Shown here in pieces: positions 4,687 through 36,458 of a stretch of 43,102 nt of DNA. A program made the translations under genes and the position numbers. The notes under the pieces were generated by a model, which was not told the DNA's origin, did no database searches, and worked only from the letters and a program-made list of their open reading frames with translations. The first letter of the stretch is position 1; every line of letters starts with the position of its first letter. The stretch covers positions 1 to 43,102 of IMG/VR virus record IMGVR_UViG_3300032335_000697, one strand, 5' to 3'. Source of the stretch: a virus (taxonomy: Duplodnaviria > Caudoviricetes).

Positions 4687-6186
4687 TTAGTAATACGCCA
4701 CTTTTTTGCGTGGCATAAATTGATCTTCTTCATCCGAGTTTAAACGGATAAATCCTCCCTGACGAAATCTTAACAAGGCTTGACTGGTGGAGTCCACAAG
4801 GTCGTCATGCTCGCCATTGGGAAAAGAAGCACATTCTTCCATCACCTCTTCCGCCCAACGCTTGTTAGGACACCAGACAAAACCTGAAGCAAACAGATCA
4901 GATATAGCGTTTACACGGGCTATCTTATCAGAGCCTTTGCTTGGTGTATATTCCTGTAATGGTATTCCCATCCTACGCATCTCATAGATGAGGGGCGCTC
5001 CTGCCGCCTTTTTCTCCACAATCAGGGCATCGGGCGTCCAATCCTTGTAAAGCTCTTGTGCTTTTTTCTTTAGTTCAGGGAACTCTAGACGGTCTTTAAA
5101 TGCGTCCAAAAGGATGATGTGGGTCGTGTCAAAACCATCGGAGTCCGTTTTATAGAAGACCCCCCATGTCGTACAGGCGGAGTAGTCCGCCCTGTTGTTC
5201 TTTTCAAAAGCCGTGTCCCAAGATTGGATAATGAACTCACAGACTGGCGGTTCGTCCTTCTCCCAGATCTGCCACATATCCCGTTTAATAATCGCCCCTT
5301 CTTCGGAGGTCGGGTTCTGCTGGTACTGGGCTTCCCATTTACTGACTGGGATCTCGTTTTTGATGGCTTCTAACTCTTTTTTGCTCCAGAACTCACTCCA
5401 TAAAGGTTTGCCTGAGGGCATGAGAGCAGGAAACTCAATCTGCTCCCAGTCGTCTCCCTCTCGTTTGATGGAGTTATTAAGGATTTGTCCTGTTAAGTCC
5501 CGCTTAGACCAGCGGGTCATCACAATAATGATGGATCCGCCAGGCTGTAGACGTTGACGAGGACCAGAAGAATACCATTCGTAGACCCTGTCGAAGACCG
5601 CAGGATTGCCTTGCATCGCCTCCTGCTCGGAATGGGGGTCGTCAATGATGAGGACATCCGCACCTTTACCCGTAACAGCACCGCCAACACCAATAGCGAA
5701 GTAATCCCCGCCTTTGTTAGTGTTCCACCGTCCCGCAGCCTTGCTGTCTGAGGATAGTTTTGTGGGAAAGAGGGCTTGGTAGTCTGGGGTCGCTACAAGG
5801 TTCCTGACCTTACGACCGAAGTTTGTCGCCAATTCTGCTGTATGGGCAGTCTGAATGATTTTCTTATGTGGAAACTTCCCTAGATACCAAGCGGGAAACA
5901 GATAGGAAGCAAACTCCGACTTAGTATGGCGGGGAGGCATATTGATGATCAGTCGCTTTAAAGACCCATTAGCGACTCGTTCAAAGGCGTCCGCCATGTC
6001 TTTATGATGTTTCCCAGCAATAAAGGCAGACCACATCTCTTTGACAAAGGGCATGAAGTTTTGCCTGCATTTCTCCTTCTTGTCCTCTTCTAAAAGCTTT
6101 TTAATCTTAGGGATCTGAGGGGAGCCTTCAGGCAGGTGATCCAATAGATTACGATACTTCCTAATTTCTTCTTCAGTAAGAATCAC
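4687..6186 (-). CDS. terL: Terminase large subunit
   Basis: MPPRHTKS Walker A, LIIDDP Walker B, QSWDTA and HDDLVDS nuclease motifs. Confidence 0.95.
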   Translation of the reverse strand: MILTEEEIRKYRNLLDHLPEGSPQIPKIKKLLEEDKKEKCRQNFMPFVKEMWSAFIAGKHHKDMADAFERVANGSLKRLIINMPPRHTKSEFASYLFPAWYLGKFPHKKIIQTAHTAELATNFGRKVRNLVATPDYQALFPTKLSSDSKAAGRWNTNKGGDYFAIGVGGAVTGKGADVLIIDDPHSEQEAMQGNPAVFDRVYEWYSSGPRQRLQPGGSIIIVMTRWSKRDLTGQILNNSIKREGDDWEQIEFPALMPSGKPLWSEFWSKKELEAIKNEIPVSKWEAQYQQNPTSEEGAIIKRDMWQIWEKDEPPVCEFIIQSWDTAFEKNNRADYSACTTWGVFYKTDSDGFDTTHIILLDAFKDRLEFPELKKKAQELYKDWTPDALIVEKKAAGAPLIYEMRRMGIPLQEYTPSKGSDKIARVNAISDLFASGFVWCPNKRWAEEVMEECASFPNGEHDDLVDSTSQALLRFRQGGFIRLNSDEEDQFMPRKKVAYY

Positions 6187-6413
6187 AGGGAGGTCATCTT
6201 TTGAATGGTTTTATCGATAGGCTCAACAGACCTGACTTTGTGGGGGTCAAGCTTTAAGAAACCCATGTCTTTTAGTCTATGGACTAGTCTATGGATATTG
6301 GCTTTACTCTTCAGGTTCAATCCTGTGGCTATGTCCACATAACTAGGGGAAAACCCTTTGACCTTGATGAAGTCCTCAATGTACCGCAACACTTCCATCT
6401 GACGTTCTGTCAC
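6183..6413 (-). CDS. LexA-type winged-helix DNA-binding protein, N-terminal domain only
   Basis: MTERQMEVLRYI...GFSPSYVDIA...LKSKANIHRLVHRLKDMGFL...RSV matches the LexA N-domain; no peptidase domain. Confidence 0.8.
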   Translation of the reverse strand: MTERQMEVLRYIEDFIKVKGFSPSYVDIATGLNLKSKANIHRLVHRLKDMGFLKLDPHKVRSVEPIDKTIQKMTSL

Positions 6414-6912: not shown

Positions 6913-7151
6913 ACTGCAACACAAGTTGGGGTAATCACACACCGTATGTGAAGCGTGAAAACGTGCTTTCCCCCGTTTCATTATACATAGAGAACGTTCG
7001 TATTGGTATATGAGTGTAGAGGAATGTGTGGATCACAGTGTAAGTACACGTAGGACGCATACACGCAAACAGCGGGGGTCGGGTGCGGTGGGGTCGAGCA
7101 AGGCACGTTTAAACAAGGGGCAGGCATCGAGCCAGTTCTCTACGCAAGACG

Positions 7152-7814
7152 TCAGTGCTTACGCTTGTTCGCATTCTCTAGCAGTGTCAGTGATGACTCC
7201 AGTTCTTTCTTCAATGCATCTACGTCAATCACCTCGTTGACCTGTTCCACCTTATCGCTAAACATTCCTACCGCCTTGCCCATTAGTTCCAGTGAGCGTA
7301 GTTTCATACTGATTGGAGTGTCTTCGTCTTCTGCGTGGTCATACAGTTGAGACATGATGTGATGACGTGCAATGCGTTCATCTGTAAGGATCATTTCTTT
7401 TCTAGCGTGCATGAGAGGCTCTAGGAGTAAAGTAACTCTAGGATCCCGCATTAGTTTGTTCGCATTGCTTGTGATTGTTGCGTGGCTTGAGTTCTCGCAG
7501 TTGTAACTCTTCATGTAAGCATTGATCGGTGTGTGACCATTGATCAGGTAATGAGCAAACATCGTAGCCCTTGGTGACAGTCTTTTGTCTCTGCCATTAG
7601 GTTCTACACCATTCTCTACTTTCACTCCATGAGGCTTACCATTCTTCTTTACCTTTATCTCTTGCTCTTCTATTGCTTTCCTATAATCCCTTGGCTGATC
7701 GCCTTTGGCATTCATTCCCTCGCCTGTACTGATAGCATCGTTCTTATTTTCTGTGCTAATACTCAGACTGTCGCATTCATTGTGTTTTTTGCTGGTCTTC
7801 ATCGCTGGTCTCAT
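7152..7814 (-). CDS. terS: Terminase small subunit
   Basis: LSPRATMFA...NAYMKSY...ANKLMRDPRV HTH region and KLRSLELMGKAVGMF tail; upstream of terL. Confidence 0.8.
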   Translation of the reverse strand: MRPAMKTSKKHNECDSLSISTENKNDAISTGEGMNAKGDQPRDYRKAIEEQEIKVKKNGKPHGVKVENGVEPNGRDKRLSPRATMFAHYLINGHTPINAYMKSYNCENSSHATITSNANKLMRDPRVTLLLEPLMHARKEMILTDERIARHHIMSQLYDHAEDEDTPISMKLRSLELMGKAVGMFSDKVEQVNEVIDVDALKKELESSLTLLENANKRKH

Positions 7815-7836
7815 CCTCGTTTAAACTTCGATCACT

Positions 7837-8009
7837 GGCTCACATGATGAGCCTGTTCCATTTTGATGTCAATATCGTTTCCTGACTGTTCTCTATTTCA
7901 CCTGTCACTGGCTCACTGCATGAGCCTCTACTATCTCTATCAGTCACCAGTGAATCGCTACCTATTTATCTGACTGTCGCACTTCGTGCTAAGGCTCACG
8001 TGATGAGCC
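7837..8009. repeat. Three palindromic sites GGCTCA-N5-TGAGCC
   Basis: 7837-7853, 7910-7926, 7993-8009. Confidence 0.85.
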
Positions 8010-8054
8010 ACCCGATTCTTAAAATGAATCCCAGTTGTGACCGAGACCGCTCAG

Positions 8055-8072
8055 TACTGTATATCCATACAT
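8055..8072. promoter_or_regulatory. Near-consensus SOS (LexA) box
   Basis: TACTGTATATCCATACAT = CTGT-N8-ACAT, one mismatch from CTGT-N8-ACAG. Confidence 0.35.
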
Positions 8073-8295
8073 GGGGTTTAAACCGCATTAGAGGGGTCTA
8101 GAAGACGTTAATGCAATTGTTGGAGCAAGTGGGTGTGCTAGCACGTGATCGTTCAATGGTGAGCCTCACCCTTATAGAACAAGGCTTGGCGGGGAGGGTT
8201 TTTTGGGTCTTGTATAAGACCTAAAACTGGGCGATAGATAGTCTTATATAGAGGGTAATACCTGAGTGAAGTGTGGGGGATTAACTACATGATGC

Positions 8296-8325
8296 TTGCA
8301 CCTGTTTAAACATTAATGCTAACAT
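8296..8325 (+). promoter_or_regulatory. Sigma70-like early promoter
   Basis: TTGCAC-18 nt-TAACAT with extended -10 TGn; the spacer contains GTTTAAAC. Confidence 0.6.
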
Positions 8326-8715: not shown

Positions 8716-8726
8716 ATGGAGGCTTT

Positions 8727-8885
8727 ATGCAAAATCAATTCCCAGTAGTGCGTGTTGAGATCGTTAATCGCTTTGCCCATTACGGCAATGATGTCGATTC
8801 ATTTAGAACAGTTTATTTTGATGAGCCGTATCAGCCTGATACCAAGGTTGGTGCTATTCCTAATAACTTCTTCTTTTCACTCTAA
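8727..8885 (+). CDS. Small early hypothetical protein (52 aa)
   Basis: GGAGGCTTT-ATG at 8727; in frame with track ORF 8697-8885. Confidence 0.55.
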   Translation: MQNQFPVVRVEIVNRFAHYGNDVDSFRTVYFDEPYQPDTKVGAIPNNFFFSL

Positions 8886-9374: not shown

Positions 9375-9436
9375 GACCTATCCTTATGCCCTTTGGGGCA
9401 TAGGGATGTGCCTTATAACTTTTAACAGGAGGGCTT

Positions 9437-9550
9437 ATGCCTATCAGAAACTTCGTAGCAAAACACGCAAAGCGTTGTGGTGCGGGTAGTCATACCGCCC
9501 GCAAGTACAGTCGTAAAACTAAACACAAGGGGGTGAAACATGGCTATTAA
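9437..9550 (+). CDS. Small basic peptide (37 aa)
   Basis: GGAGGGCTT-ATG; MPIRNFVAKHAKRCGAGSHTARKYSRKTKHKGVKHGY; below the ORF-track cutoff. Confidence 0.55.
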   Translation: MPIRNFVAKHAKRCGAGSHTARKYSRKTKHKGVKHGY

Positions 9551-10130
9551 TCGTGAAGAGTGGTTGAACGAGGCGGTATCAGAATTACGTGGCATTTTCG
9601 ATGCCAATGGTTTTCCTATTCCCGCCAATGTCAGGGTGACTTGTGGCTTTCCCAGTAAACACGCACGTAGTCGGAATCGTGCTATTGGCGAGTACCACAA
9701 AGCATCGGCATCGGCTGATGGTACGCATGAGATCCTGATCTCGCCTGTGGTTGCCGATCCCTACGAGGTATTCGGGATCTTGGTTCATGAGTTGTCGCAT
9801 TCGGCTACTCCTGACTGTGGTCATCGTGGTCGGTTTGAGCAGTGCATTCGCAAGGTGTGGCTTGAGGGCAAGCCTAGTTCCACTGTGATTGGCGAGACCT
9901 TTCGCCAAAATTTTGGCGGTTTGATCGAGGGCTTGGGTGCGTATCCTCATGCCCCTTTAAACGTTGAGGCTGACCGCAAGGTTCAGGGTACTCGGATGCT
10001 CAAGGCATCTTGCCCGCATTGCAATTACACCATCCGACTGACCAGTAAATGGGCAAACGTTAGAAAGCCTGATGGTTCGTTGGCGGGTCTTCCAGTTTGC
10101 CCAGTTGATGGGCATCAGTTATCACTTTAA
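9540..10130 (+). CDS. SprT-like zinc metalloprotease with C-terminal zinc ribbon
   Basis: ILVHELSH (HExxH), GHRGRF, CPHC...CPVD. Confidence 0.75.
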   Translation: MAINREEWLNEAVSELRGIFDANGFPIPANVRVTCGFPSKHARSRNRAIGEYHKASASADGTHEILISPVVADPYEVFGILVHELSHSATPDCGHRGRFEQCIRKVWLEGKPSSTVIGETFRQNFGGLIEGLGAYPHAPLNVEADRKVQGTRMLKASCPHCNYTIRLTSKWANVRKPDGSLAGLPVCPVDGHQLSL

Positions 10131-10148: not shown

Positions 10149-11618
10149 TTGAACAATCTTAATATCGAAAAGCAAGTACCACTCATCCCTCTCGCACAAT
10201 TGAATGGTGTGCTTGAGCATCATGGTCTCGTAGGCTTTGCACCACGTGACAAGGCACAGGCTATCGCTCAGGTCATTGCCTTGATCAATGCGGGTAAGGT
10301 GACCATCGATCAGGTCAAGGCTACCAAACCATCGGTTGCCACTGGCTTGCCAACTGACGTTGCCGATCAAATCACCAAGGCACAGGCTCAGATTAATGAG
10401 AGCCTGTCCAAGGTTGAGAAAGTGCGTGAGGTTGCGAATCGTTCGCTCGATCAGTTGCTGATTCAGTCTACCGCTATCGAAAAGAAGTTCGATGACCTGA
10501 CTGCCCGTTTAAACGTCAAGGTAGATGCAATCGAAAAGCCTGATGCCAAACTGATTGCCGATACCCTACGTGCTGAGGTGTCCAAGCAGTTCGAGAAGTT
10601 CCGCAAAGCCACCCCAGTGGAGGTCATTGCTGAGGTTGCTCAGACTGTGGCGGTCACTCGTAAGGTCAAGGTCAAGGACGTGTTCGATGGTGTCCTGTCC
10701 TATGAATACAATGGCGAGACGATTGATTTCTCCGAGTTGGAGATCGAGGTGTTCGATGACCCATCCGCTCCCGCTCGTGTCGCTGACTACGTGTTTGCAC
10801 CACGTCACTTGCACCAAGCCTTGGTTGCACTGGACGATGCTCTGCCTGATAACACATGGCTTGCGGGTGAGCGTGGCACTGGCAAGACCGAGTTCGTTAC
10901 CCAGTTAGCCTCACGTCTCGGACGTAGATTGTTTCGTGTGAATTTTGACGAGGCGATTGAGCGTGCCGACTTCATCGGTGCTAACAGTATCGAGAATGGC
11001 AGTGTCGTGTGGAAAGCGGGTGTCATCACTCAAGCGATCCAGTACACAGGTGCTATCGTTTTAGTTGACGAGGTTGGCTTTGCCCGCCCGCAGTCAATTG
11101 CGATTCTGCATTCCCTCTGTGAGCGTAGCCCGCATCGTTCGATTGTGATCAGCGAGACAGGTCAACGCATCCCTGTTGCTAGTCATGTTGCGTTCTTCTG
11201 TGCTGACAATAGCAATGGTCATGGTGATACGTCAGGTAACTTTGCGGGTGTGCGTGATCAGAACACTGCGTTCATTGATCGGTTCGGTTACACGCTCCGC
11301 TTTGAGTACTTGCCTGAGAATCAGGAAGTTGCACTGGTATCGAGTCGCACTGGTTTAAACATCGATGCATCTACTGTGCTGATTCGCTTTGCCAATGTGG
11401 CTCGTGAGAAAGCACGTGCGGGTGTGCTGACTCAGCCACCTAGTCTTCGCCAGTTGTTTGCTTGGGCTAGAGCAGTGAGCAAGGGCGTGCCAGTTGGTAT
11501 CGCCTTTGAGAATGCGATCATCAATAAGTTTCCCGCTGATTGCGAGGCTGAGTTACGTGGTGTGTTTTCTGCGGTGATCGATGTCGCTAATTTCAAATCT
11601 TTTTTGGGAGGTAAGTAA
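10149..11618 (+). CDS. MoxR/CobS-like AAA+ ATPase with N-terminal coiled coil
   Basis: GERGTGKT Walker A, VLVDE Walker B, NTAFIDRF, SLRQL; TTG start with AGGGGCTTA. Confidence 0.88.
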   Translation: MNNLNIEKQVPLIPLAQLNGVLEHHGLVGFAPRDKAQAIAQVIALINAGKVTIDQVKATKPSVATGLPTDVADQITKAQAQINESLSKVEKVREVANRSLDQLLIQSTAIEKKFDDLTARLNVKVDAIEKPDAKLIADTLRAEVSKQFEKFRKATPVEVIAEVAQTVAVTRKVKVKDVFDGVLSYEYNGETIDFSELEIEVFDDPSAPARVADYVFAPRHLHQALVALDDALPDNTWLAGERGTGKTEFVTQLASRLGRRLFRVNFDEAIERADFIGANSIENGSVVWKAGVITQAIQYTGAIVLVDEVGFARPQSIAILHSLCERSPHRSIVISETGQRIPVASHVAFFCADNSNGHGDTSGNFAGVRDQNTAFIDRFGYTLRFEYLPENQEVALVSSRTGLNIDASTVLIRFANVAREKARAGVLTQPPSLRQLFAWARAVSKGVPVGIAFENAIINKFPADCEAELRGVFSAVIDVANFKSFLGGK

Positions 11619-12643
11619 TGCTTGCAATCAATGCTAAACGTGGTGTCGAATCCACACTGGAGCGTGTGTTCAAGAATGCGGGCGGTCAATTTGATCGCCT
11701 CGACTTCGTGTGGTCAGGTACTACTGCGGGCATCATCTTTGAACGTGGTCAACGTGGTGTCGATGCTAAGATCCTGTTCCCCGCAATCAACGAGGCATCC
11801 GACATCCCTCGTGCCAAGTTCAATAACCTAATCGGTTATGCCTTGCATGAGTTGGGTCACGCTTGGTTTACCGATAACGATCCTTGGGATAACGCTCGTA
11901 GAGAGCATGGCGGGTTCGTTGCTAACTTAATTAATGGTCTTGAAGATCCTCGCATCGAACTCAAGGTTATCGAATCAGGTTACGCACCAAACAGTCGTGC
12001 CTTGTTTGAAGACCTTACCAATTCTGTCTTGAAGAAGAATGGTTACGTTGAGGCAGACGATCTTAAAAACGTACCATTCCTACTCGCCATCGAGGGTAGA
12101 CGTTTAAACGGCTATCACATCAACGTGCCAAGCATTATCGATGATGCACCTTGGGCTAGTGATTTGCACTGGGCATTGGGTGAGGCACAGTTAGCCACCA
12201 ACACTCAGCGTATCGCTGAGATTGCAATCGAGTTGTATAAGCGTTTGCAACAAGAGACTCAGGGCGATAAGCCTACCGATAAGCCTGAGCCACCTGATGA
12301 TCAAGAGCCACCAGTTGGCGGTCAGCCTTGTGATGATGGTGAACCTACTGAGGGTGGAGATCAGCCTAGTGATGAACAGGGTGAGGGCGGTACTCAAGGT
12401 GACAAGCCCGCTGATAAGGGTGACGATCAGGGTGGTGACGAGGGCGGTAAGGGTGGCGATAAGCCTACCGACAAGCCCTCTGACAAACCATTAAAGGGTC
12501 GTGGCAAGGGTGACTTTGAGGGTGGTCGTGATCCTGAGCCATCTGATTTCATTGAGGGTGAGTTCGGTGAGTCTGATGTAGAAAGCGGTGGCGATATTCC
12601 TAATGTTGCTAAACCAAAGTTTGAGAAATTTACTTGGAGGTAA
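11618..12643 (+). CDS. CobT-N-like protein with HExxH motif and acidic G/D/P-rich tail
   Basis: YALHELGH...NGLEDPRIE; DKPTDKP low-complexity repeats. Confidence 0.75.
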   Translation: MLAINAKRGVESTLERVFKNAGGQFDRLDFVWSGTTAGIIFERGQRGVDAKILFPAINEASDIPRAKFNNLIGYALHELGHAWFTDNDPWDNARREHGGFVANLINGLEDPRIELKVIESGYAPNSRALFEDLTNSVLKKNGYVEADDLKNVPFLLAIEGRRLNGYHINVPSIIDDAPWASDLHWALGEAQLATNTQRIAEIAIELYKRLQQETQGDKPTDKPEPPDDQEPPVGGQPCDDGEPTEGGDQPSDEQGEGGTQGDKPADKGDDQGGDEGGKGGDKPTDKPSDKPLKGRGKGDFEGGRDPEPSDFIEGEFGESDVESGGDIPNVAKPKFEKFTWR

Positions 12644-12644
12644 T

Positions 12645-20819: not shown

Positions 20820-21101
20820 ATGGATTACAAAAAACCATACGAAGAAAAACCTAACACAGGTTCTTTCTTTGCCAACAAAACAAAGACCAATCCTAAAGCA
20901 CCCGACTATCGTGGAAAGATTTTGCTTGATCTAAGCACCTACGACATTGTCGATGGCAAGGTTGCCGTGGAGTTGGCGGGATGGAAAATGACTGCCAAGT
21001 CAGGTCTCAGTTACCTTCAATTAAAGGCACAAAAGCCAAGAGAAGAACAATCCAGTAAACCAGTAAAACAGGAGATTCAAGATGACGACATCGAATTCTA
21101 A
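20820..21101 (+). CDS. Putative ssDNA-binding protein
   Basis: K.PDYRG...AGW...YLQL core and acidic DDDIEF tail; follows erf. Confidence 0.6.
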   Translation: MDYKKPYEEKPNTGSFFANKTKTNPKAPDYRGKILLDLSTYDIVDGKVAVELAGWKMTAKSGLSYLQLKAQKPREEQSSKPVKQEIQDDDIEF

Positions 21102-21321
21102 AAAACGTGGCAGACCAGTTGGTTCTAAAAACAAAGCGAAGCGTGGCAGACCAGCTAAGACGTTTAAACAGTTTGATGTAGAGAGTCGAGCATTAGCCAA
21201 GATTGTTGAGTTGGAAAAGATTCGTGAAAACTTGCACAACATGATCGACAACCTTGAACATCAAGCAGTTCAGTACAAAGCAGTTATTAGTTATCTTGAA
21301 AACAAACTGGAGAACAGATGA
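21082..21321 (+). CDS. Double AT-hook plus coiled-coil DNA-binding protein
   Basis: KKRGRPVGSKNK and KRGRPAK. Confidence 0.7.
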   Translation: MTTSNSKKRGRPVGSKNKAKRGRPAKTFKQFDVESRALAKIVELEKIRENLHNMIDNLEHQAVQYKAVISYLENKLENR

Positions 21322-22017: not shown

Positions 22018-22208
22018 CCAATCAAGATAGGGAGTATCTGCGTGATTTGCTTGCGGGATTTGCTCTGACTGGACTATTAATGCGTGGCAATAATAAGCTA
22101 GAAGAGTTAGCGGTTGGTGCTTACTCTTTGGCTGACGATATGCTTGAGGCACGTAAACCACGTGAAGAAGGCATTGTTGCCATTAAAAGAAGAGTCAAAC
22201 CAAAATGA
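22014..22208 (+). CDS. Conserved small phage protein
   Basis: LRDLLAGFALTGL...AYSLADDMLEAR. Confidence 0.7.
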   Translation: MTNQDREYLRDLLAGFALTGLLMRGNNKLEELAVGAYSLADDMLEARKPREEGIVAIKRRVKPK

Positions 22209-23281
22209 ATCAAATTCAATTTGGCGACTGCCGAACTATCATGGATCAGTGGATCTCTGAAGGGGTGAAGGTACAGACTTGTGTCACCTCTCCCCCCTAC
22301 TTTGGTCTACGAGACTATGGTACGTCTACATGGCTTGGAGGAGATGCCAATTGCCAACACGAAGGTGTGCCAATTGGTAATAACCGAAACTTTATTAATG
22401 AAGGCGGTAGGCTTGGGAACAACAAGGCTCTGTCTCATGGTAACTGTGTAAAGTGCGGTGCGGTTAGACAGGATAGCCAAATAGGATTGGAGAAAACAGT
22501 TGGCGACTACGTGGCGGCTATCGTTGGGGTGTTTAAACGGGTTAAGGATTTGCTGTCGGATGACGGGACGCTGTGGCTAAATCTTGGGGATAGTTACTAC
22601 AATTACCGAGGCGGAAAGGGGCAGTCATTGGTTAAACAAACTGTCTCCAATAACCTCCAAGACTTACCGCAAGTCTGTGCTAGGCGGGGAAACAAGCAAG
22701 AAGGTCTAAAGGAAAAAGACCTCATAGGCATCCCTTGGCGGGTCGCCTTTGCCCTACAGGAGGATGGTTGGTATCTACGTCAGGACATCATTTGGCACAA
22801 GCCTAATCCCATGCCTGAGTCTGTCAAAGATCGATGCACGAAGAGCCACGAATACATCTTTTTGCTAACCAAGAACCCCAAATATTACTTTGATAACGAG
22901 GCAATCAAAGAGCCTGTTAAGGAAGATTGGGGTACTAGGGACAGGACAGATGGCAAGTACCATAACGAAGGTACAGGACTTAGCCCCCACTCAGGGCTAG
23001 AGAAGTCATACGAAATGGCTAACAAGCGGTCTGTATGGACTGTTACCACCAAGCCTTTTCATGGCGCACACTTTGCCACTTTCCCAATGGATTTGATTGA
23101 GCCTTGCATCCTTGCGGGTAGTCGCCCCAGAGATATTGTGTTTGATCCGTTCATGGGTTCTGGAACCAGCGCTGCCGTAGCTCAACGTTTAAACAGGCAA
23201 TACTTGGGCTGCGAGCTGAATACGGAGTACAAGAAGTTACAAGATGCACGTCTGTCGCAACAGTCACTGGAGTTGTTATGA
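22205..23281 (+). CDS. Beta-class amino DNA methyltransferase (SPPY, probably N4-C)
   Basis: VTSPPY motif IV before DPFMGSGT motif I; HFATFP. Confidence 0.9.
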   Translation: MNQIQFGDCRTIMDQWISEGVKVQTCVTSPPYFGLRDYGTSTWLGGDANCQHEGVPIGNNRNFINEGGRLGNNKALSHGNCVKCGAVRQDSQIGLEKTVGDYVAAIVGVFKRVKDLLSDDGTLWLNLGDSYYNYRGGKGQSLVKQTVSNNLQDLPQVCARRGNKQEGLKEKDLIGIPWRVAFALQEDGWYLRQDIIWHKPNPMPESVKDRCTKSHEYIFLLTKNPKYYFDNEAIKEPVKEDWGTRDRTDGKYHNEGTGLSPHSGLEKSYEMANKRSVWTVTTKPFHGAHFATFPMDLIEPCILAGSRPRDIVFDPFMGSGTSAAVAQRLNRQYLGCELNTEYKKLQDARLSQQSLELL

Positions 23282-23730
23282 CATTTCAAGAAGATCTAGA
23301 ACGTGGTTTTGAAGTTGAGTATGCAGTGCTTGAGATCATCCGTAAGAAGTACCCATCAGCAAGCCTGATCAATGCCTATAAAGGCTACGACATATGGGTT
23401 CCTGAGTTGCACAAGTCGGTCGAAGTTAAGTACGATCCTATGAGCAACGAAACTGGAAACATTGTCATAGAGATAGAAATGAATGGGAAGTTATCAGCCC
23501 TAAGCACCACCACCGCAGATTATTGGGTATTCCATGATGACCACGTATTTATCATTATGAAGCCAATGAGCATCGTTAATTGCATTTTTCAAAACAAGTT
23601 GCAATACGTAGAATTTGTTGGCGATGGAGACCGTGCCAGCAAAAAAGCATTTTTAGTTCCAAAGGAGTTATTGTTTAAACATGGTAAAAGATTAGGAGAA
23701 GCTGATGCTAAAAACAACACCAATACGTAA
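23278..23730 (+). CDS. PD-(D/E)XK nuclease-fold protein
   Basis: YDIWV...VEVKYD...TGNIVIE. Confidence 0.65.
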   Translation: MTFQEDLERGFEVEYAVLEIIRKKYPSASLINAYKGYDIWVPELHKSVEVKYDPMSNETGNIVIEIEMNGKLSALSTTTADYWVFHDDHVFIIMKPMSIVNCIFQNKLQYVEFVGDGDRASKKAFLVPKELLFKHGKRLGEADAKNNTNT

Positions 23731-26276: not shown

Positions 26277-26552
26277 ATGGCTACCAAGGCGGAGAAAGAG
26301 CGGTATGGAAAAATGGCAAGACTCGGATGCATCCTGTGTTGGCATCTTGGATACGAAGGAACACCCGCAGAAATACATCACATTAGAAGAGGTGGTAGAC
26401 GAGACAATGCTCCTGTTATCCCGCTATGTCCTGAACACCACCGAGGAAATACTGGTATTCACGGACTTGGACGCAAAGCATTTGAAGCGAAGTATGAGTT
26501 ATCTGAGGAGGACTTATCCGTATTCACGGAACATCTCCTAACGAATGCCTAA
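26277..26552 (+). CDS. Ref/DUF968-like zinc HNH nuclease
   Basis: GCILC...AEIHH...IPLCPEHHRG...GIH. Confidence 0.75.
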   Translation: MATKAEKERYGKMARLGCILCWHLGYEGTPAEIHHIRRGGRRDNAPVIPLCPEHHRGNTGIHGLGRKAFEAKYELSEEDLSVFTEHLLTNA

Positions 26553-29500: not shown

Positions 29501-32500
29501 TATCATTTTCAAAATCAAACGGTTTTCTAGAATAAACATATGTTGGAATGATATTGGCACGGCTAGGCAACTGCTCTCTTAATACTCTAGCCATCTCCTC
29601 CTCTGGAAGATCACCGCTTTTCTTAGCCCGTTTATCAGCTTCTTTTGCAAGTTTTTGCAACTCTTCGCTAGACAATATTTTTTTTAATTCCTTAACCATG
29701 TAGGCTTCGCTGGCATCAGTGAAACCTTCAGCAAAACGAGGGTTATCAGTTAAGAAAATAGCATTCGCTTGCTTAGGTTTAAACTCCGTAATATCACGGG
29801 CAGTGCCGTGATACATGATTTTTGGATTGCCATTCTCATCAACAATCTTAGACTTGCCTTCTATGCGGTTCATAAAGGCATCAACCTCTGGGGTGTCAGG
29901 AGCCTTTAAAGACATCTTTTTCTTAAGCGACAGAGTTCCTTTTGTTGGCTCTACTTTCTTTTCTGCCTCTGCTTCTATTTGATTTGGGTTAAGGACACGC
30001 TTTACCTTAACGCCAACAGGCTTAGGCTCAACACGACCTTCTTTGCTGGCTTGTACCAGAATGCCACGTTGCTTCTCTTCAAACTTCTTAGCCTCTGGCG
30101 GTTGTATATTCTTACCAGACCATAACGCATTGCCGTATTTGGTAGGAATACGAGCATCACTGTACATACTTTGTACTTCGTAATGATCCGCTAGTTGTTT
30201 TACAAACATAGCATCGTCTGTTAATGGATCGTAAAGAACCAACTGAGGTCCGCTGCGGTATACCCGTTTAAACCGCTTGCCAAGATCCTCGATATGCAAA
30301 ATCAGGTCTTCTAAACGCTCTTTGGTAACTTCAGCGGGTCTGCGTTTAACGTCAGTCTGCATCCTTCTAAGGATGTGGTTGGCTCCATAGCCTTGATCAC
30401 TAATGTCGTCATGCGTACCAACAGGTAGGCGGATAGGGTATTTAGCAAATGGTGCGGAACCTGGCATAAACGCTAGGTTGCCTGTGTTGTTGGGGTTTTT
30501 CTCTGAGACTAAGAACGTGGTTGGGTCTATGTTGCCCAACGCTAGAGAATACTTACTTTCAGGGGCTACTTCTTCTGCTCTAAAAGAAAATTTACCGATG
30601 GATTTAGCCTGTTCATCAATTCCTTGATCGTATTCTTTAACTTTTACACCGTCTGTTTTTGTTGGTGCCTTGTTATAGGTTGGGTCATAGACCATGAAAA
30701 CAACATCAGGCTCCCCTTTGTTAAAAGGAAGAAACACTTCTTTATCCCAGTTATCTGGTTTATATTCATCATTCCAGCCTAAACGAGCAACAATCTTGAA
30801 ACCATTGTTGTAATACAAATCTGGCAATACAGTATCAAACGCATCTAATCTTCTACCGCCTTCTTGTACTGCCAACTGCATAATTCCGTTAACGCCACCA
30901 ACGTATGGTTCTGTAGAAAATACAGAAACAATATCATCACCCTTTAAGGCAAAACCAGCTTTTCCATCTTTGGTAAGGAATGTACGCATATTTGCGTATT
31001 CTTCCTCTGGGTATACATAAACTGCCGCCCCAAATTGGGTACCTTTTTTTGATGAAGCAATAGATTTTTGAAATAATTCAGCACCGCTTGGATCTAATTC
31101 ATAAAAAGTTGGGGTATCTACATCGGCAGTTAAAAGAGCGTTTTTAAAACGAATAACAGGTTTAAATTCTGCAATTGCTTTTTGTCCTAAAACCCGAAAT
31201 CCTTTGCCATCTGTTCCGCCATTTCTCTTGTAAGCATTGGGTGTCTCTTCATTGCGTTCTCTATAGGATCGTATGATTCCCCTTGTGATGAAGTGTTTGC
31301 GTTCTTTTCCAGCAAAGCCAACATCTCTTCCTTCGGAGCCAATTTTAGAGGGGTACTTTCCAAAATCTCGTTGTATTGCTGCTGTTCTGTCTGCATATTC
31401 TTTCTCCGTAGTTGCTTCTACATCTTTAATTTTTGACTCAGGTATGCCGTTTAAACGGGCTAGTTTGGCTGCTGCGTTGGAATAGTCTGGTGCTTCATCA
31501 TCAGTATAACCTTCGCTGACATTACTTTCTTTTGCTGCATCGTACAAACGCCTTTCTGGATACCATAACAAAGCCTGCAAATCAGACATTGTCATGTTTG
31601 GGTAGCCACGTTTACGTATGCCGTCTAATATTCCTGAGAAAACCTCACGAATGTAATTTCTTTCAGCAGGACCTGCTGGTGCTTCTTTTTGTGCATCAAT
31701 GTAACCAACAAGACTATTAGATGTTTTGCGAATTGTTTGCCCAAGATCGCTTTTATTAAAAATTGATCTATTTGCGGGCTTGATTGAAGCCTTGTTAATT
31801 GCAGTAGCTAAAGCATCAATTGCTGTGTCGTTTGCAAAATCTTTTTCTGTAATGGTTTTGTTAATAACTTGTTCAAAACGTTCACGAGTTTGTTTGTTTT
31901 TTGATTCAACCAATCCTTGGATCAAATCGTTCATCTCACCACGTTTGTTACTAATGAGACGTGCGTTGTCTTCAATTAAAGAACCAGTCCAACGACCCCA
32001 AGTACGCATTAACCAACGATCCATCGTTAGTTGATCAAAAATACCGTTTAAATTAGAGAAGAAACCATTGCCAATCTTTGGTCCAAGGATGGATGCACCC
32101 AATACTCTTGTGTCAGCAAATTCACCGCCTACTTCTAAATTTGTAATTCTTTCAATTTGTTTGACCGTAAACTCAGTAGCCATGAATTTACGCATATTAT
32201 CAATGCCGTACTTCTCGGTCATCAAATTAAATAACTCTAAACTGTTATTAATGGCTTGTTGTGCTTCTCCAGCACTAAGATTGGTTGGCATCTTCCCTGT
32301 TTTTTTGTAAGCTTTGTAAGCTTGCTCTGCTAACTGGAAGTTCTTGTCAACTTTTATACCGTTAGATGTAACAGCTAATGCCCAAGTAAATGCAAATTTT
32401 GCATCTGGATCGGTTTTAATCTCTGGATGCATTAAAGCAATAACATTTAAGGCTTTGGCTACGGTTTTATCGTACCAACCTACTGCATTTGCATTGCTTT

Positions 32501-35500
32501 TTAATGCATAAATAGCATCATCTATACCAGCTTTAACTAAGTGTTTGGTAGTTTCGTCTTCTGTAGATGAGAGATCAATGCCTTCTTTTTCGGCAGCAGC
32601 CAATACTTGATCTTGAATGGCAATTTTTAAATCACGGTTGCGTTTAAACTTATCGCTGTTGTCACGGGCAAATTTAAAAATATTTTCTAAAGAAGATGTT
32701 TCCAACAATGGCTTTTCTTCTGCACGTAATGAATACTTAAACTGTGATTTAGGTGCATATACCGCATTTTTAGCCAGCACGAGCGGACCAATCTGAATTA
32801 CTTCATCGGCAGAAACAACAGGTTCGGTTGTTTTACGGTCATAGAAATAGCTATGACGCTCTGGATCCATACCAACCTGTGTCCATGCTGGGTCGTTTAA
32901 AGCCTCTTCTGCTCTTGCAACCGCTTCTTTTTCACTAATCTTTTTGTAGCTACCTTTAATGGTGGCAATTGTGCCTTTTGGCTTTCCACCAGCAATACTT
33001 GCGGCAGCTTTTTCAGACATACCAAATGTGGCATTAGTTACTGAGGCTACGCTTTCATGTCCAATCTTCTTGCCAGCACCAAATCCTGATGCTTGTTCAT
33101 GGATGGTAGGAACCCATACCCCATAACGGCTATATGCTGGAATATCTAGTCTTAAGCCAACTGGGTGACCATTCTTTAATGTCTTAGATGGAACACCATA
33201 GGTCTCTTTGTCTTCAATAGCACCTATAGCTTCTGCTTTTGTAGCTGGTTTTGGAACAAAATCATACGGCATGATTGTTTTGTACTTATTAACCAACTTG
33301 TCGTACTGTTTGGCGGTTATCTCTCCAGCCTCAAGCTTTGCCATTCCCTCTTGTAGCTCAGGAATACGCTCGGTAACCTGTTTAAAGTCCATATCAATAC
33401 GTCTTGTTTTGTCGTATTTAATGCCTTTTTCAGTTTTAACAGGCTCAAGAGTTTTAATACCACCTTCTTCAACTTTGGCAAATATTTCATTGGCGGTAGT
33501 AAAGCCTAGTTTGTTAAGGGAGTTACGTAGGGCTTCAAAGAACTTCTGTAGGCGGTAAATGATGTTGCCAATCATGCCTGCTGGCAGTTTGTTCTTGCTA
33601 TAGAAACGGAAAGCCTCGGCAATAGCCTCTTCTTGAATGTATTCGTCAAAACCTTTTAGGCTACCGTAGTCCTGTTTGTATTGATCTTGATAGCGTTTAA
33701 ACAGCCCACGATCAGTGATGAACTTTTGAATCCACTCGGACTTAGCCTTGTTTGTTAGGACTTTCCATTCGGCATCGGTAAACCCGCCAAGCTCTTTAAT
33801 AGCATGGATGGACTCATGGCGAAGTGTTCCCATGACATCTTTGGCATCTAGAGCCAATGTAATTAAGTTTTTAACGTAAGAACCGTCTGCTTTGCCGTTT
33901 TCAATGCTATCGACAATGTTTAAACCAATCTTTTCCAAACCAAAACGCTTAAGAGTTGGCATTAAAGACTTGCGGAAAGCATCTATATTCTCTGTTAGCT
34001 TCTCTTGTGCTTCTTTTTTAACAAGACCAAGCTTTTCTAAACGTTCTTCAGCACCTTCTAACCCCTGTTTGGTGGTAATTTCAATGCCTTCAGGCTTCTT
34101 ACCAGTGCGGGAGTCTAGTTCTTTTTGGGCTAGGTCTACGTAACGTTTTACTCTGCCTGTTTGCTTTTGAGTTGGAGCAGAATCAATGATCTGCTGCAAT
34201 GTCTGGTCGTTTAAACGGCTTATGCCATATGCTTCAGCCTGTTCTTCGCTGTCAAACTTAACGGTTGGCTTACCTTTTTCATAATAGGTAAACTTGTTTT
34301 GGGTCAAAGCTCTAGTACCAACAGGCACTATTCTGACTGGCTGAGTAAGTTTTTGCTGTTGTTGCCGTAATGTTGCTATTTTTTGATTAGCTTCTTGATC
34401 TTTACTATAGGCTTTGGCTGAATCAATAAAAAATTGATCTTCCGTGTCTTCTCCTAAAGACCTAGCCTTAAGCAGTGCATTTTCTCGTTGCTGAATGCCA
34501 GCCTGCAAACTGTTAATTTGTTTCTCCAAATCAACAATCTTTGCCTGACGATTTCTTTCATGTATGACCAGTTCCTCTTCTGCTTCCTCAGCAGTTTCTT
34601 TCTGGTTGATCACTCGACTGCCAGAACGAATTTCATAGAAATCAGGGGCATCTCCCTGTTTAAACGTCTCTTTACGGATGTCCATGCCGCCAGGCAGCTC
34701 TTTTCTTGGAGTGGGTTTCTGGATCATCTCTACATTCTTTTCCACACCATTGACGTTCCGAACCTCAACGATACGCTCCAAGTCACCGCTAAGGAGGGCT
34801 TGGTCTAAAAGACGTTGCTGGTCTTTCCTTCTTGTTAGACCACTATATTTCTCAATCTGCTTTAGTACGCTTTCTCTGCCGTTAGGTTTATCGCCTACTT
34901 CTGCAAACTCTTTATTGATCCCGCCTAGAGTCTTTGTATATTGCTCAGGGGTATAGTGTTTAACCGTAGTAATGCCAGCTTGTAGGACTTGGGACTCAGA
35001 CCCTACGGGAATGTTATCTAGTGCCTGCTTAACCGCCAAACGCTGGGGAGCAGACATATCCTCCAAATTACTGGTTCCAGTGGTTCTTTCTAGGAAGTCT
35101 CTAAAGCCTTGAGTATCTGTAGCAATACCACGCTGCTGGGCGGCTAAATTCAATACGTTAGGGGGTATATCGTTTTCTGCTTGAAAACCTGTCCTAGAGG
35201 CTACTAAGCGTCCTAGGACACCTTCTGCGGTCTTACTCTCCTCTGGGGTAAAGACGTCAGCCAAGTCCTCAATAGAGAAGGTCTTGCCAATACGAGCCTT
35301 ACCCATTGCCTGTCTGCGTTTATTAATCTCTGCAATTTCCTTGGCACTAAGGTCAGTGGTTTGGAATCGACCCAAAGGATTGAATAAAGGATCGTCCTCG
35401 GAAGGCTCTACGTACTTCTTGTCTGGTGCGGGTAAGGCTAGAGTCTCAGGAACACCTAATTGTTGCCGAGTTTCTTGTATCTGTTGACGTTGCTCTAAGG

Positions 35501-36458
35501 CGGCTTTTTGCTGGGCTTCTTGTTCGGCTCTTTGACGATCAAGCATAGCCTGTCGTTTCTGCTCCTGTTCCATCTGGCTACCCTGACGGACAATGGCTCC
35601 ACGCTCTAAGTAGGTGCCAGGTACGGCTAATGTACCGCCAAGTACTGCACCGCCAATAAAGCTATCAAAGTATTCGTCTCTGGCTTGTTGGTCTGAGATG
35701 TTTAAACCAGCCTGTAGACGCTCTAAGAACTGTTGCCCTACTTCAGTAGCACCCTCAATACCAGCCAGCTTGGCTGAACCAGCACCATAAGCGGCAGTGG
35801 TTCTAAGCATCCCTTGCTCGGCAATCTTCTTAGCTAGTTCTGGAGTGACTTCCTTGCCAGCCGCACCAAATAGCTTACCAACCGCTGGGATCATTCGTAA
35901 TGAAATAAGGTCTAATGCAGTTTGGGGAGCAGCCGCAGCAGCAGCTTTACCTAGACTAGTTTCTTCTAGGGTTTTGCCTGTCTCCATCTGGCGGGCAAGG
36001 TTAGATCCTGTAAACTGGCTTAAAGAGGCAAGTCCAGCGCCACCAAGACCAACTGCTGCACCAAGACCAAGAGCTTTGGCTCCAACACCAGCAACTAATG
36101 GAGCTGCCATGTATGGTACAGAACCGCCTAATGTTTCTCTAAACTTTAAGAATGGAGCCTGAGACCAACCTTCTTCTGTTGGTTTAAACATCTTTTCGGC
36201 TAATATGTCTTTTTCCCTCTTATAACGTTCAGCATCTTCTAGACTCATTAGTCCAGTTTTGCCAGCTAAAAGGGCTATATCACCCTTTAAACGCTCTTTA
36301 CCTGCGGAAAAAGCACCAGTAAATCCTGTGTCTTGTTTAATTTTTTCTGGACGATACATCATCTGAGCATAGGCTGCCACCTGCTCATTAGTAGCCCCTT
36401 CAGGAGCTTCTATTTCCAGAATTTTGCCGTCTGGTGCGGCTACTTCATAGATAGGCAT
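26538..36458 (-). CDS. Giant polyvalent ejection protein (3306 aa)
   Basis: HESIH zincin; HhH-glycosylase-like, GNAT-like, GxGxxHI nuclease-like and YHGT..QIKS ART-like segments; LPD38-like C-terminus. Confidence 0.85.
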   Translation of the reverse strand: MPIYEVAAPDGKILEIEAPEGATNEQVAAYAQMMYRPEKIKQDTGFTGAFSAGKERLKGDIALLAGKTGLMSLEDAERYKREKDILAEKMFKPTEEGWSQAPFLKFRETLGGSVPYMAAPLVAGVGAKALGLGAAVGLGGAGLASLSQFTGSNLARQMETGKTLEETSLGKAAAAAAPQTALDLISLRMIPAVGKLFGAAGKEVTPELAKKIAEQGMLRTTAAYGAGSAKLAGIEGATEVGQQFLERLQAGLNISDQQARDEYFDSFIGGAVLGGTLAVPGTYLERGAIVRQGSQMEQEQKRQAMLDRQRAEQEAQQKAALEQRQQIQETRQQLGVPETLALPAPDKKYVEPSEDDPLFNPLGRFQTTDLSAKEIAEINKRRQAMGKARIGKTFSIEDLADVFTPEESKTAEGVLGRLVASRTGFQAENDIPPNVLNLAAQQRGIATDTQGFRDFLERTTGTSNLEDMSAPQRLAVKQALDNIPVGSESQVLQAGITTVKHYTPEQYTKTLGGINKEFAEVGDKPNGRESVLKQIEKYSGLTRRKDQQRLLDQALLSGDLERIVEVRNVNGVEKNVEMIQKPTPRKELPGGMDIRKETFKQGDAPDFYEIRSGSRVINQKETAEEAEEELVIHERNRQAKIVDLEKQINSLQAGIQQRENALLKARSLGEDTEDQFFIDSAKAYSKDQEANQKIATLRQQQQKLTQPVRIVPVGTRALTQNKFTYYEKGKPTVKFDSEEQAEAYGISRLNDQTLQQIIDSAPTQKQTGRVKRYVDLAQKELDSRTGKKPEGIEITTKQGLEGAEERLEKLGLVKKEAQEKLTENIDAFRKSLMPTLKRFGLEKIGLNIVDSIENGKADGSYVKNLITLALDAKDVMGTLRHESIHAIKELGGFTDAEWKVLTNKAKSEWIQKFITDRGLFKRYQDQYKQDYGSLKGFDEYIQEEAIAEAFRFYSKNKLPAGMIGNIIYRLQKFFEALRNSLNKLGFTTANEIFAKVEEGGIKTLEPVKTEKGIKYDKTRRIDMDFKQVTERIPELQEGMAKLEAGEITAKQYDKLVNKYKTIMPYDFVPKPATKAEAIGAIEDKETYGVPSKTLKNGHPVGLRLDIPAYSRYGVWVPTIHEQASGFGAGKKIGHESVASVTNATFGMSEKAAASIAGGKPKGTIATIKGSYKKISEKEAVARAEEALNDPAWTQVGMDPERHSYFYDRKTTEPVVSADEVIQIGPLVLAKNAVYAPKSQFKYSLRAEEKPLLETSSLENIFKFARDNSDKFKRNRDLKIAIQDQVLAAAEKEGIDLSSTEDETTKHLVKAGIDDAIYALKSNANAVGWYDKTVAKALNVIALMHPEIKTDPDAKFAFTWALAVTSNGIKVDKNFQLAEQAYKAYKKTGKMPTNLSAGEAQQAINNSLELFNLMTEKYGIDNMRKFMATEFTVKQIERITNLEVGGEFADTRVLGASILGPKIGNGFFSNLNGIFDQLTMDRWLMRTWGRWTGSLIEDNARLISNKRGEMNDLIQGLVESKNKQTRERFEQVINKTITEKDFANDTAIDALATAINKASIKPANRSIFNKSDLGQTIRKTSNSLVGYIDAQKEAPAGPAERNYIREVFSGILDGIRKRGYPNMTMSDLQALLWYPERRLYDAAKESNVSEGYTDDEAPDYSNAAAKLARLNGIPESKIKDVEATTEKEYADRTAAIQRDFGKYPSKIGSEGRDVGFAGKERKHFITRGIIRSYRERNEETPNAYKRNGGTDGKGFRVLGQKAIAEFKPVIRFKNALLTADVDTPTFYELDPSGAELFQKSIASSKKGTQFGAAVYVYPEEEYANMRTFLTKDGKAGFALKGDDIVSVFSTEPYVGGVNGIMQLAVQEGGRRLDAFDTVLPDLYYNNGFKIVARLGWNDEYKPDNWDKEVFLPFNKGEPDVVFMVYDPTYNKAPTKTDGVKVKEYDQGIDEQAKSIGKFSFRAEEVAPESKYSLALGNIDPTTFLVSEKNPNNTGNLAFMPGSAPFAKYPIRLPVGTHDDISDQGYGANHILRRMQTDVKRRPAEVTKERLEDLILHIEDLGKRFKRVYRSGPQLVLYDPLTDDAMFVKQLADHYEVQSMYSDARIPTKYGNALWSGKNIQPPEAKKFEEKQRGILVQASKEGRVEPKPVGVKVKRVLNPNQIEAEAEKKVEPTKGTLSLKKKMSLKAPDTPEVDAFMNRIEGKSKIVDENGNPKIMYHGTARDITEFKPKQANAIFLTDNPRFAEGFTDASEAYMVKELKKILSSEELQKLAKEADKRAKKSGDLPEEEMARVLREQLPSRANIIPTYVYSRKPFDFENDNDVEEVLNNLETESLAVELDRRALRNGNWSEIEKPRFQKAIKAAGFDAFYVKEGGQKNLAVYDSSQIKSAFNVAPTAESKDIRYSFNAPPENHTKLESANTAGKRLTDSINSVIKMFKDPEERIKTRIAFIDPNSGLAKRLQNEEIYTNGVLRGDLLARAKAQTINLIRNGLQTGIPTVNSDGSLIIEIDEVNNLANSQVLADRLNDNYYVKGSGLSGRGFVAEVARALRGKEIMEEDRIHNAKTGENRNREKQVTQEQIKWAEQQLKDVPEIQEVFDIWKKVNTGLINLWENVGLLDKAEADTYRAKKFYVSLAASNTDLDTMMERQLGFTASGLKSTPKVHKLEGAEYLRDKSGKVVLDEEGNPVPLQRNIWENIDKQYASMLAGAYQNQVRKVAITQLIDAGAARIPTKKRNGVDVGNPDAQGINLRYKDPTNPLADSKGVVHVVVDNATDLAAFESMHYELGPVLKFFGGATNVLRAGALLNPMFWIRQLIRDPIHASIVANGGIVTPFHSAKEYINVLRKNSEEAKILASRGVIGQYDSTLDLQTFLEQVGTEKVDPSNVQKLFHKLMLMHEASDAATRVAIFKKEKQSALNKGMTEEEAVNYAVMKSREAINFLVHGNSKILNAARQMIPFLSASITSLDTVYRAATGYNLPASEKEAAKKLFKQRAALMFGSSVAYAMLMQDDEEYQKQPNYVKDNNWLIKNPISEGFLKVPVPYEVGFLFKVVPEVALRYAYGNDNGKEMIKAYKDGLLHNLPTGGVPVPQAIKPALETIVNYSFFTGNPVESIGESRLPVEMRGRNASETAKFLSGAGLGFVGLSPSKIDNLVQGYFAEAGTFMFGLADQLVYTLQGTEGAAKNLEKQPFFKAFMTDPNADKAVANFFDIQQTANRTAQGFNELKNSGRLEEAREMVEDEEKKMLIASAPTLRKFSENMTKVRRQIEIVKGDQSRTPEERRELINKLTAQYNIIAQQGVKAADKLGIR
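31187..31396 (-). CDS. Possible nested out-of-frame gene (69 aa)
   Basis: GGAG-7 nt-ATG; protein-like helical sequence; lies in an interdomain linker of the giant ORF. Confidence 0.4.
   Translation of the reverse strand: MQTEQQQYNEILESTPLKLAPKEEMLALLEKNANTSSQGESYDPIENAMKRHPMLTREMAEQMAKDFGF

What the first reader, a model, noticed from the sequence alone, without database searches (positions are those of the whole stretch)
4738..36189. GTTTAAAC palindrome heavily over-represented (HIP1-like genome marking)
Counted by eye at 4738, 6858, 7107, 7819, 8076, 8304, 10507, 11353, 12102, 13880, 15021, 15894, 15948, 16736, 17291, 18242, 18310, 18769, 19945, 21162, 22531, 23187, 23673, 24213, 25901, 26269, 27491, 28884, 29777, 30266, 31449, 32642, 33695, 33918, 34209, 34658, 35700 and 36182 (38 copies). 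A rough base-composition estimate gives about 1. In 30 of 38 the preceding base is a pyrimidine. It occurs in genes in different frames (RLN, FK) and between genes. Phages usually avoid palindromes. Inference: a binding site for a DNA-organising or protecting protein, or a methylation-linked motif. Candidate readers are the AT-hook protein and the methyltransferase/nuclease pair.
Basis: partly seen in the sequence, partly recalled or inferred. Interest (0 to 1): 0.8.

Follow-up and report, generated by a model that had tools for sequence, protein, structure and literature searches.

The report
Phage DNA address for zinc-tail protein
This freshwater phage carries 38 copies of the eight-letter word GTTTAAAC where about one is expected, and across unrelated phages and plasmids the word appears together with a small zinc-binding tail on a protease-like gene, which likely binds it and would coat the element's own DNA, probably as a shield against host proteins.

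Summary
All 38 copies are real (1.2 expected; 26 in genes against 4 under synonymous shuffling) and evenly spaced. Sites turn over between relatives and change amino acids. The proposed readers fail: the methyltransferase and nuclease are missing from 6 of 6 near-complete relatives holding 21-54 sites, the AT-hook gene from 4 of 6. The word is not host-wide in 201 Burkholderiaceae genomes (host unknown). It tracks the SprT-like gene at 9540-10130, as earlier notes of this scan found on other DNA; I tested that here. New here: the likely reader is its ~50-residue C-terminal zinc tail (Q-x-T-R). Of 19 named phages and plasmids with a homolog, the 12 with that tail hold 4-41 GTTTA[A/C]AC sites; the 7 without hold 0-1, some on the same host strain. 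Contigs picked by the word alone carry the gene in 20 of 25 enriched cases. One phage group keeps only the tail, or a dead protease, and has the densest arrays. Binding and purpose are untested. Most likely a self-addressed DNA shield; a stoperator-like repressor is the main rival. No description found in print.

The parts
4738..36189 (.). Array of 38 exact GTTTAAAC palindromes, mean spacing 850 bp, 26 inside listed genes and 12 not fully inside one
7107..8311 (.). Four sites (7107, 7819, 8076, 8304) flanking the terminase small subunit gene and in the divergent region before the rightward early operon that holds the SprT-like gene
   Evidence: early-operon and genome-end roles are inferred from gene order
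9540..10130 (+). SprT-like gene (196 aa; PHROG 6361, unknown function): the inferred reader of the word
9540..9950 (+). N-terminal zinc-metalloprotease domain; H83-E84-x-x-H87 plus H95 invariant in 70 homologs; model closest to SPRTN (6MDX, Z 8.4, rmsd 3.1, 95 aligned)
9975..10130 (+). C-terminal tail (residues 146-196): K-x-Q-x-T-R strand, Cys knuckle, strand, short helix, second Cys knuckle; inferred sequence-reading module; no family match
36190..43102 (.). Site-free stretch over ejection and virion genes (with 1-4737 over scaffold and portal); relatives have sparse, not zero, sites in their structural genes
22205..23730 (+). N6/N4 methyltransferase and neighbouring nuclease-like gene: tested and rejected as reader or writer
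21082..21321 (+). AT-hook-like small protein (Pfam AT_hook E 0.019, under the cut-off): not supported as reader

Best explanation
The word GTTTA[A/C]AC is a selected, dispersed DNA mark that co-occurs with the C-terminal zinc tail of the phage's SprT-like protein, which likely binds it and would thereby coat the phage's own DNA at intervals, probably to keep host DNA-binding or DNA-translocating defence proteins off it. Shown: enrichment, regular spacing, positional turnover, and co-occurrence with the tail rather than with the protease. Inferred: direct binding (about 0.9). Inferred with less support: the purpose (about 0.5). The gene sits near the start of the early operon, so its product would load first on the densely marked early half. 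Where the HExxH protease is intact it would be tethered to the DNA and could cut host proteins that arrive there; where it is dead or missing, occupancy alone would have to do, which may be why those genomes pack 3-4 sites per kb locally.
For: Tail and word go together. Named records with a Q-x-[T/I/V]-R tail: 12 of 12 carry 4-41 sites (Crosby 41, Yang 20, Magnetospira plasmid 18, Percival 16, Pan1 16, 4A 14, R5C 10 in 50 of 78 kb, Mica 7, HeidiAbel 6, Caulobacter plasmid 6, pUT1 5, Persinger 4); 7 of 7 homologs with an altered tail but intact HExxH carry 0-1. Percival (16) and Dismas, Quenya, BAjuniper, Armstrong (0) are recorded on the same host strain. Reverse test: 21 of 28 enriched against 2 of 51 non-enriched loci carry the gene; 20 of 25 distinct enriched contigs after follow-up; 0 of 5 non-enriched whole records. 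Protease dispensable: 44 stand-alone tails and 12 dead proteases among 56 loci, about 2.9 sites per kb downstream. For coverage rather than fixed operators: 66 distinct site positions in 10 conserved genes; spacing CV 0.40-0.63 with P<0.01 in the window, Yang, Percival, Crosby, Pan1 and R5C; both orientations of the asymmetric variant; presence on 3 plasmids. Analogy: ArdC, a DNA-binding metalloprotease whose anti-restriction activity does not need the protease (PMC7213743, passages).
Against: No binding, proteolysis or protection was measured; the target is unknown. The tail-less negatives are only two lineages and the protease-less forms one lineage with many near-copies, so the density argument rests on one case. 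Whole-genome spacing is not regular in the six near-complete relatives (CV 0.81-1.44), and sites thin out over structural genes (deciles 41,47,31,29,18,17,7,13,12,21), which a uniform shield does not predict. Sites are enriched outside genes (12 of 38 vs 12% expected; Yang 8 of 20 vs 8%) and lie just upstream of the gene in several phages, which suits a repressor. An N-terminally truncated homolog goes with clear rather than turbid plaques in Liebe vs Maureen (10.1101/2025.05.26.655371, section 14). Named records were hand-picked (16 of 164 phages, 3 of 73 plasmids).
Confidence: 0.5

Rival explanations
1. Same reader, different purpose: the tail is a repressor or roadblock. It binds its own promoter and many sites along the early region to shut early transcription down (a timer in lytic phages, immunity in temperate ones), like a stoperator system.
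For: In the protease-less group the array starts within 1 kb upstream of the gene (3.5 per kb, against 0-0.09 at 1-6 kb upstream) and fades by 9-10 kb downstream. A site lies 16-81 bp upstream of the gene in Mica, HeidiAbel, Persinger, Yang, the Magnetospira plasmid and Pan1. Intergenic excess. Cluster AZ phages have no identified immunity repressor and the Liebe truncation gives clear plaques.
Against: Orientation of GTTTACAC is mixed (Yang 14/6, Percival 9/5 on almost single-strand gene maps; Crosby 20/21), whereas stoperators are polar (PMC9283540, passages). Most sites are inside genes, 12 of them in the late 3306-aa gene of the window. In L251 density falls with distance from the contig's early end even inside one opposite-strand gene run. 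The window has no site within 1.2 kb upstream of the gene.
Confidence: 0.3
2. Same reader acting as a ratchet or organiser for DNA entry or compaction: the first-made protein binds sites on the entering DNA and helps draw in or fold the genome.
For: Polar gradient from the early end in two unrelated phage groups; regular spacing.
Against: Three plasmids carry gene and sites; Crosby, Yang, Pan1 and R5C have sites along the whole length examined. The physical genome end of the window's phage was not determined.
Confidence: 0.1
3. The word mirrors a host-wide motif or a methylation target (HIP1-like), or is read by the window's methyltransferase, nuclease or AT-hook protein.
For: The window encodes an N6/N4 methyltransferase and avoids many restriction-type palindromes; its host is unknown.
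Against: Methyltransferase and nuclease in 0 of 6 near-complete relatives with 21-54 sites; at most 103 sites in 2.4 Mb among 201 Burkholderiaceae genomes; presence and absence on one host strain follow the tail; records name hosts from Actinobacteria to Alpha-, Beta- and Gammaproteobacteria.
Confidence: 0.05

Closest known systems
SPRTN/Spartan and Wss1 DNA-dependent metalloproteases
   Same: HExxH zinc-protease fold (model vs 6MDX Z 8.4, rmsd 3.1, 95 aligned; Wss1 5XBN Z 6.8, rmsd 3.8, 102 aligned) followed by a small zinc-binding, basic module.
   Different: SPRTN is described as DNA-structure-specific (PMC7534798, search listing only); here the tail tracks one 8-bp sequence, and it occurs alone or with a dead protease.
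ArdC of plasmid R388 (PMC7213743)
   Same: Mobile-element protein joining a DNA-binding part to a metalloprotease; anti-restriction works without the protease (passages).
   Different: ArdC binds single-stranded DNA non-specifically through an N-terminal domain; no ArdC-type Pfam match here; no cognate genome-wide word is described in the passages read.
Stoperators of Cluster A mycobacteriophages (PMC9283540)
   Same: Twenty or more sites dispersed through the phage's own genome for one phage protein.
   Different: Those are 13-bp asymmetric, oriented with transcription, in promoters and short intergenic gaps, bound by an HTH repressor; here 8 bp, both orientations, mostly in genes, no HTH.
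HIP1 of cyanobacteria (PMC5861425, PMC4390886)
   Same: 8-bp palindrome, strongly over-represented, inside and between genes, under selection.
   Different: HIP1 is chromosome-wide in the host and contains the targets of two orphan methyltransferases; this word is specific to mobile elements and independent of a methyltransferase.
SprT-like protease of Arthrobacter Cluster AZ phages (10.1101/2025.05.26.655371)
   Same: [quoted passage not shown]
   Different: No recognition sequence is named in the passages and section read ('tttac' and 'stoperator' occur 0 times in the main text).

Membership tests
HIP1-type iterated palindrome | 8-bp palindrome over-represented 15-fold or more, in and between genes | tested here: met
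   38 vs 1.24; 26 vs 4.0 in genes
HIP1-type iterated palindrome | Abundant across the host chromosome | tested here: inconclusive
   Host unknown; not enriched in 201 Burkholderiaceae genomes or two other MAGs; present or absent in phages of one host strain
HIP1-type iterated palindrome | Linked to a cognate methyltransferase | tested here: not met
   Window methyltransferase in 0 of 6 near-complete relatives with 21-54 sites; other methyltransferases were not surveyed
HIP1-type iterated palindrome | Sites methylated in vivo | not testable with these tools
   No modification data available
Stoperator/repressor system | More than twenty sites dispersed through the phage genome | tested here: met
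   38 in the window; 21-54 in relatives
Stoperator/repressor system | Asymmetric site oriented with transcription | tested here: not met
   Palindrome in the window; asymmetric variant in both orientations (Yang 14/6, Percival 9/5, Crosby 20/21)
Stoperator/repressor system | Sites mainly in promoters and short intergenic gaps | tested here: not met
   12 of 38, 8 of 20, 5 of 16 outside genes: enriched but a minority
Stoperator/repressor system | Binding blocks transcription and confers immunity | not testable with these tools
   Only the Liebe/Maureen plaque observation in a preprint
SprT/SPRTN/Wss1 metalloproteases | HExxH motif with a third His and the SprT-type fold | tested here: met
   H83, E84, H87, H95 invariant in 70 homologs; top structural match 6MDX
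SprT/SPRTN/Wss1 metalloproteases | Pfam SprT-like (PF10263) match | tested here: inconclusive
   No hit for the window protein at E<0.5; homologs score around the cut-off
SprT/SPRTN/Wss1 metalloproteases | DNA-activated proteolysis of DNA-protein crosslinks | not testable with these tools
   Needs biochemistry
ArdC anti-restriction proteins | N-terminal ssDNA-binding domain plus C-terminal metalloprotease | tested here: not met
   Domain order is reversed (protease first, zinc tail last) and no such Pfam match
ArdC anti-restriction proteins | Protects the element against restriction | not testable with these tools
   Needs plating or conjugation assays

The most novel reading that the evidence does not exclude
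Phages and plasmids across several bacterial phyla write their own 8-bp address along their DNA so that a 50-residue zinc domain of a new kind parks a SPRTN-like protease every few kilobases, destroying or blocking host defence proteins that scan the DNA: a sequence-addressed, self-only anti-defence system.
Probability: 0.4. Interest if true: 0.92.

Novelty: categorically new. Interest (0 to 1): 0.8.

Why it matters
Phages usually lose palindromes, and this one has lost GGCC, CCGG and CGCG completely, yet it gains one palindrome even at the cost of amino-acid changes. The same word and reader span freshwater phages, cultured E. coli, Arthrobacter, Microbacterium, Streptomyces and Dinoroseobacter phages and alphaproteobacterial plasmids. 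That gives a direct, testable role to hundreds of 'SprT-like protease' annotations, bears on the missing immunity repressor of Cluster AZ phages, and points to a very small domain that may read eight base pairs, of use as a DNA-targeting module.

Tried and rejected
Methyltransferase, nuclease and AT-hook readers. Codon or amino-acid bias. Host mirror in Burkholderiaceae; the host link is one 1.9-kb contig in a MAG and is weak. Fixed-position operators. Homodimer prediction gave no verdict (score 0.29, mark 0.42). The tail has no significant match in PDB sequences, Pfam, NCBIfam or the ESM Atlas, and the fold search barely covered it, so its fold is not excluded from known zinc ribbons. No search of the 50%-representative library, of metagenome contigs or by Foldseek was obtained, so other fusions of the tail may exist; the 120 best longer hits were mostly 170-240 aa and the longer ones read (306-357 aa) were the same protein with N-terminal extensions. 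Literature searches listed no paper linking GTTTAAAC or GTTTACAC to a phage protein; most subscription papers are not in the library, and the supplements of the Cluster AZ preprint were not seen.

Full report
Observation. The window is a 43,102-bp virus record with terminase, portal, primase-helicase, a CobS/CobT-like pair and a 3306-aa LPD38 protein. Its terminase is 52-59% identical to those of HTVC023P-type phages, and the runs that hold half or more of a 5-kb test stretch are labelled freshwater, lake or plain metagenome. GTTTAAAC occurs 38 times at the listed places against 1.24 expected, while GGCC, CCGG and CGCG occur 0 times. 26 copies lie in listed genes against 4.0 in synonymous shuffles (max 12 of 1000); host tripeptides are in excess (19 vs 9.0, 19 vs 6.2); the near miss TTTTAAAC is absent. 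Spacing between 4738 and 36182 is more even than random (CV 0.63, P about 0.002), and 12 of 38 sites are not fully inside a gene against 12% expected.

Clade-wide and turning over. 78 of 80 terminase-related IMG/VR loci hold at least one copy. Six near-complete relatives hold 21-54 copies against 0.25-1.8 expected; counted from 2.5 kb upstream of the SprT-like gene the deciles run 41, 47, 31, 29, 18, 17, 7, 13, 12, 21, so the early half is dense and the structural half sparse. Whole-genome spacing in these six is therefore not regular (CV 0.81-1.44). Over 153 loci (with duplicates) the sites fall on 66 distinct positions in ten conserved genes, a few of them alignment offsets; at terminase residue 424, 119 loci read RVNA and the two site carriers read RLNA. 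The one-letter variant GTTTACAC is also enriched in the six relatives (87 vs 11.2), as are ATTTAAAC (58 vs 13.3) and CTTTAAAC (48 vs 19.0) to a lesser degree.

The proposed readers and the host. The methyltransferase and its nuclease-like neighbour match in 0 of 6 near-complete relatives, the AT-hook gene in 2 of 6. The host is unknown; a terminase relative sits on a 1.9-kb contig of a Burkholderiaceae MAG. Among 201 genomes of that family the highest count is 103 in 2.4 Mb, and most are below the reversed-pattern control. Four cultured terminase relatives have 0-3 GTTTAMAC sites and no match to the SprT profile (the same profile found 5 of 5).

The SprT-like gene. Earlier notes of this scan on other genomes pointed to a SprT-like gene; I took that as a lead. 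The window has one at 9540-10130, with H83-E84-x-x-H87 and H95 invariant in 70 homologs. The AlphaFold model (pLDDT 90, pTM 0.73) matches SPRTN best (Z 8.4, rmsd 3.1, 95 aligned, residues 2-117). All 85 IMG/VR loci fetched with it are enriched (890 vs 15.6), but they are one clade. For independence I picked 16 of 164 phage records and 3 of 73 plasmid records with a homolog. Nine phages and three plasmids have a tail with Q-x-[T/I/V]-R and a later R-x-[T/S/A]-x-x-W; all twelve hold 4-41 sites, against expectations of 0.7 or less where computed (none computed for Mica and 4A, whose reversed controls gave 0-1). Actinobacterial phages use mostly GTTTACAC. Seven homologs keep HExxH but have a different tail, and hold 0-1 sites. 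They form two well-supported groups among site-bearing rows in a tree of 27 protease domains. Four of them share the recorded host strain with Percival, which has 16 sites.

Reverse test. A scan for two words 20-50 bp apart read 4 of 64 parts of IMG/VR and gave 126 loci; 47 under 4 kb were dropped. After removing the two seed sites, 28 of 79 were enriched; 21 of these carry the gene against 2 of 51 others, and those two have 4 and 5 sites. The 28 are 25 contigs, 18 with the gene in view; two more have it elsewhere in the record; the other five are fragments of 10-12 kb without it. Five non-enriched records, three of them complete, have none.

The tail without the protease. Several of these contigs belong to an unrelated group that looks actinobacterial (a WhiB-like frame in L251, recognised from recall). 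Their homologs have lost HExxH or consist of a 55-60-aa tail as the first gene of a rightward run. Of 57 loci fetched with one such tail, 56 were scored: 44 stand-alone, 12 dead protease, 0 with HExxH; 2.9-3.0 sites per kb downstream; 0-0.09 per kb at 1-6 kb upstream, 3.5-4.2 from -1 to +3 kb, 0.13 at 9-10 kb. Five near-complete genomes hold 32-58 sites. So protease without tail goes with no word, and tail without protease with the densest arrays. This places the reading function in the tail by inference. The tail matches no known family.

Mechanism. Even spacing in the window and five cultured phages, turnover, mixed orientation and presence on plasmids suggest that coverage is what is selected. 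I favour a self-addressed shield: the early-made protein would occupy its own DNA at intervals and hinder or cut host proteins acting along it. ArdC is a precedent for a DNA-binding metalloprotease that counters restriction without needing its active site (PMC7213743; abstract start and passages). The rival is repression: sites cluster upstream of the gene, are enriched between genes, and a truncated homolog goes with clear plaques in Liebe, which differs from Maureen by three further changes (10.1101/2025.05.26.655371; passages and section 14). Stoperators differ in polarity and placement (PMC9283540; passages). HIP1 is host-wide and methylase-linked (PMC5861425, abstract; PMC4390886, listing and a term search). 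PMC12363180 and PMC8758107 (passages) mention phage SprT-like proteins without a DNA site; PMC12315714 (abstract) shows phages can be selected for host Chi sites, a different case because Chi is read by a host enzyme.

Novelty and verdict. Eight searches found no paper on this pairing. The scan has noted word and gene together before; the mapping to the tail, the tail-less negatives and the protease-less forms were not in the notes I saw. Observation confirmed; reader inferred with high odds; purpose open between shield (0.5) and repressor (0.3). Interest 0.8.

Noticed in passing
window 1-43102: Extreme avoidance of restriction-type sites: GGCC, CCGG, CGCG and CGNCG absent, 25 of 64 six-base palindromes absent; the set avoided differs among relatives (some lack GATC instead), hinting at different host restriction sets.
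   Followed up: partly
window 1-43102: GCGG/CCGC is twice its expectation (290 vs 142), mostly as GGCGG; perhaps compensation for avoided words, perhaps a second signal.
   Followed up: partly
window 26538-36458 (-): 3306-aa polyvalent protein with LPD38 and ART-PolyVal domains at the end of the ejection-protein run; it holds 12 of the 38 sites.
   Followed up: no
window 10149-13448 (+): CobS-like AAA ATPase followed by a CobT-like protein in two overlapping frames (N-terminal part, then vWA part); the split is shared by relatives and always follows the SprT-like gene.
   Followed up: no
window 6183-6413 (-) and 1618-2022 (-): A lone LexA DNA-binding domain directly before the terminase and a GroES-like gene between portal and scaffold, both kept in 6 of 6 near-complete relatives.
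   Followed up: no
L088 14585-16520 (G002): This complete relative lacks the window's primase-helicase and has a different pair of replication-type frames at that place.
   Followed up: no
L271 5794-5961, L274, L284, L370-L425: Freshwater phage group with the zinc tail alone or on a dead protease as first early gene, followed by amidoligase-like and glutamine-amidotransferase-like frames (recognised from recall), with an 8-10 kb block of 3-4 sites per kb.
   Followed up: yes
L223, L225 (plasmids NZ_CP114873.1, NC_014005.1): The SprT-like gene sits directly upstream of parA and a ribbon-helix-helix gene; record NZ_CP114873.1 is one 13.9-kb unit present twice.
   Followed up: no
L149, L106, L107; window 8717-8730 and 9426-9440: A GGAGGCT-type word is the top 8-mer in some relatives (AGGAGGCT 14 vs 0.22 in L149); similar strings precede early frames in the window, probably strong ribosome-binding sites.
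   Followed up: no
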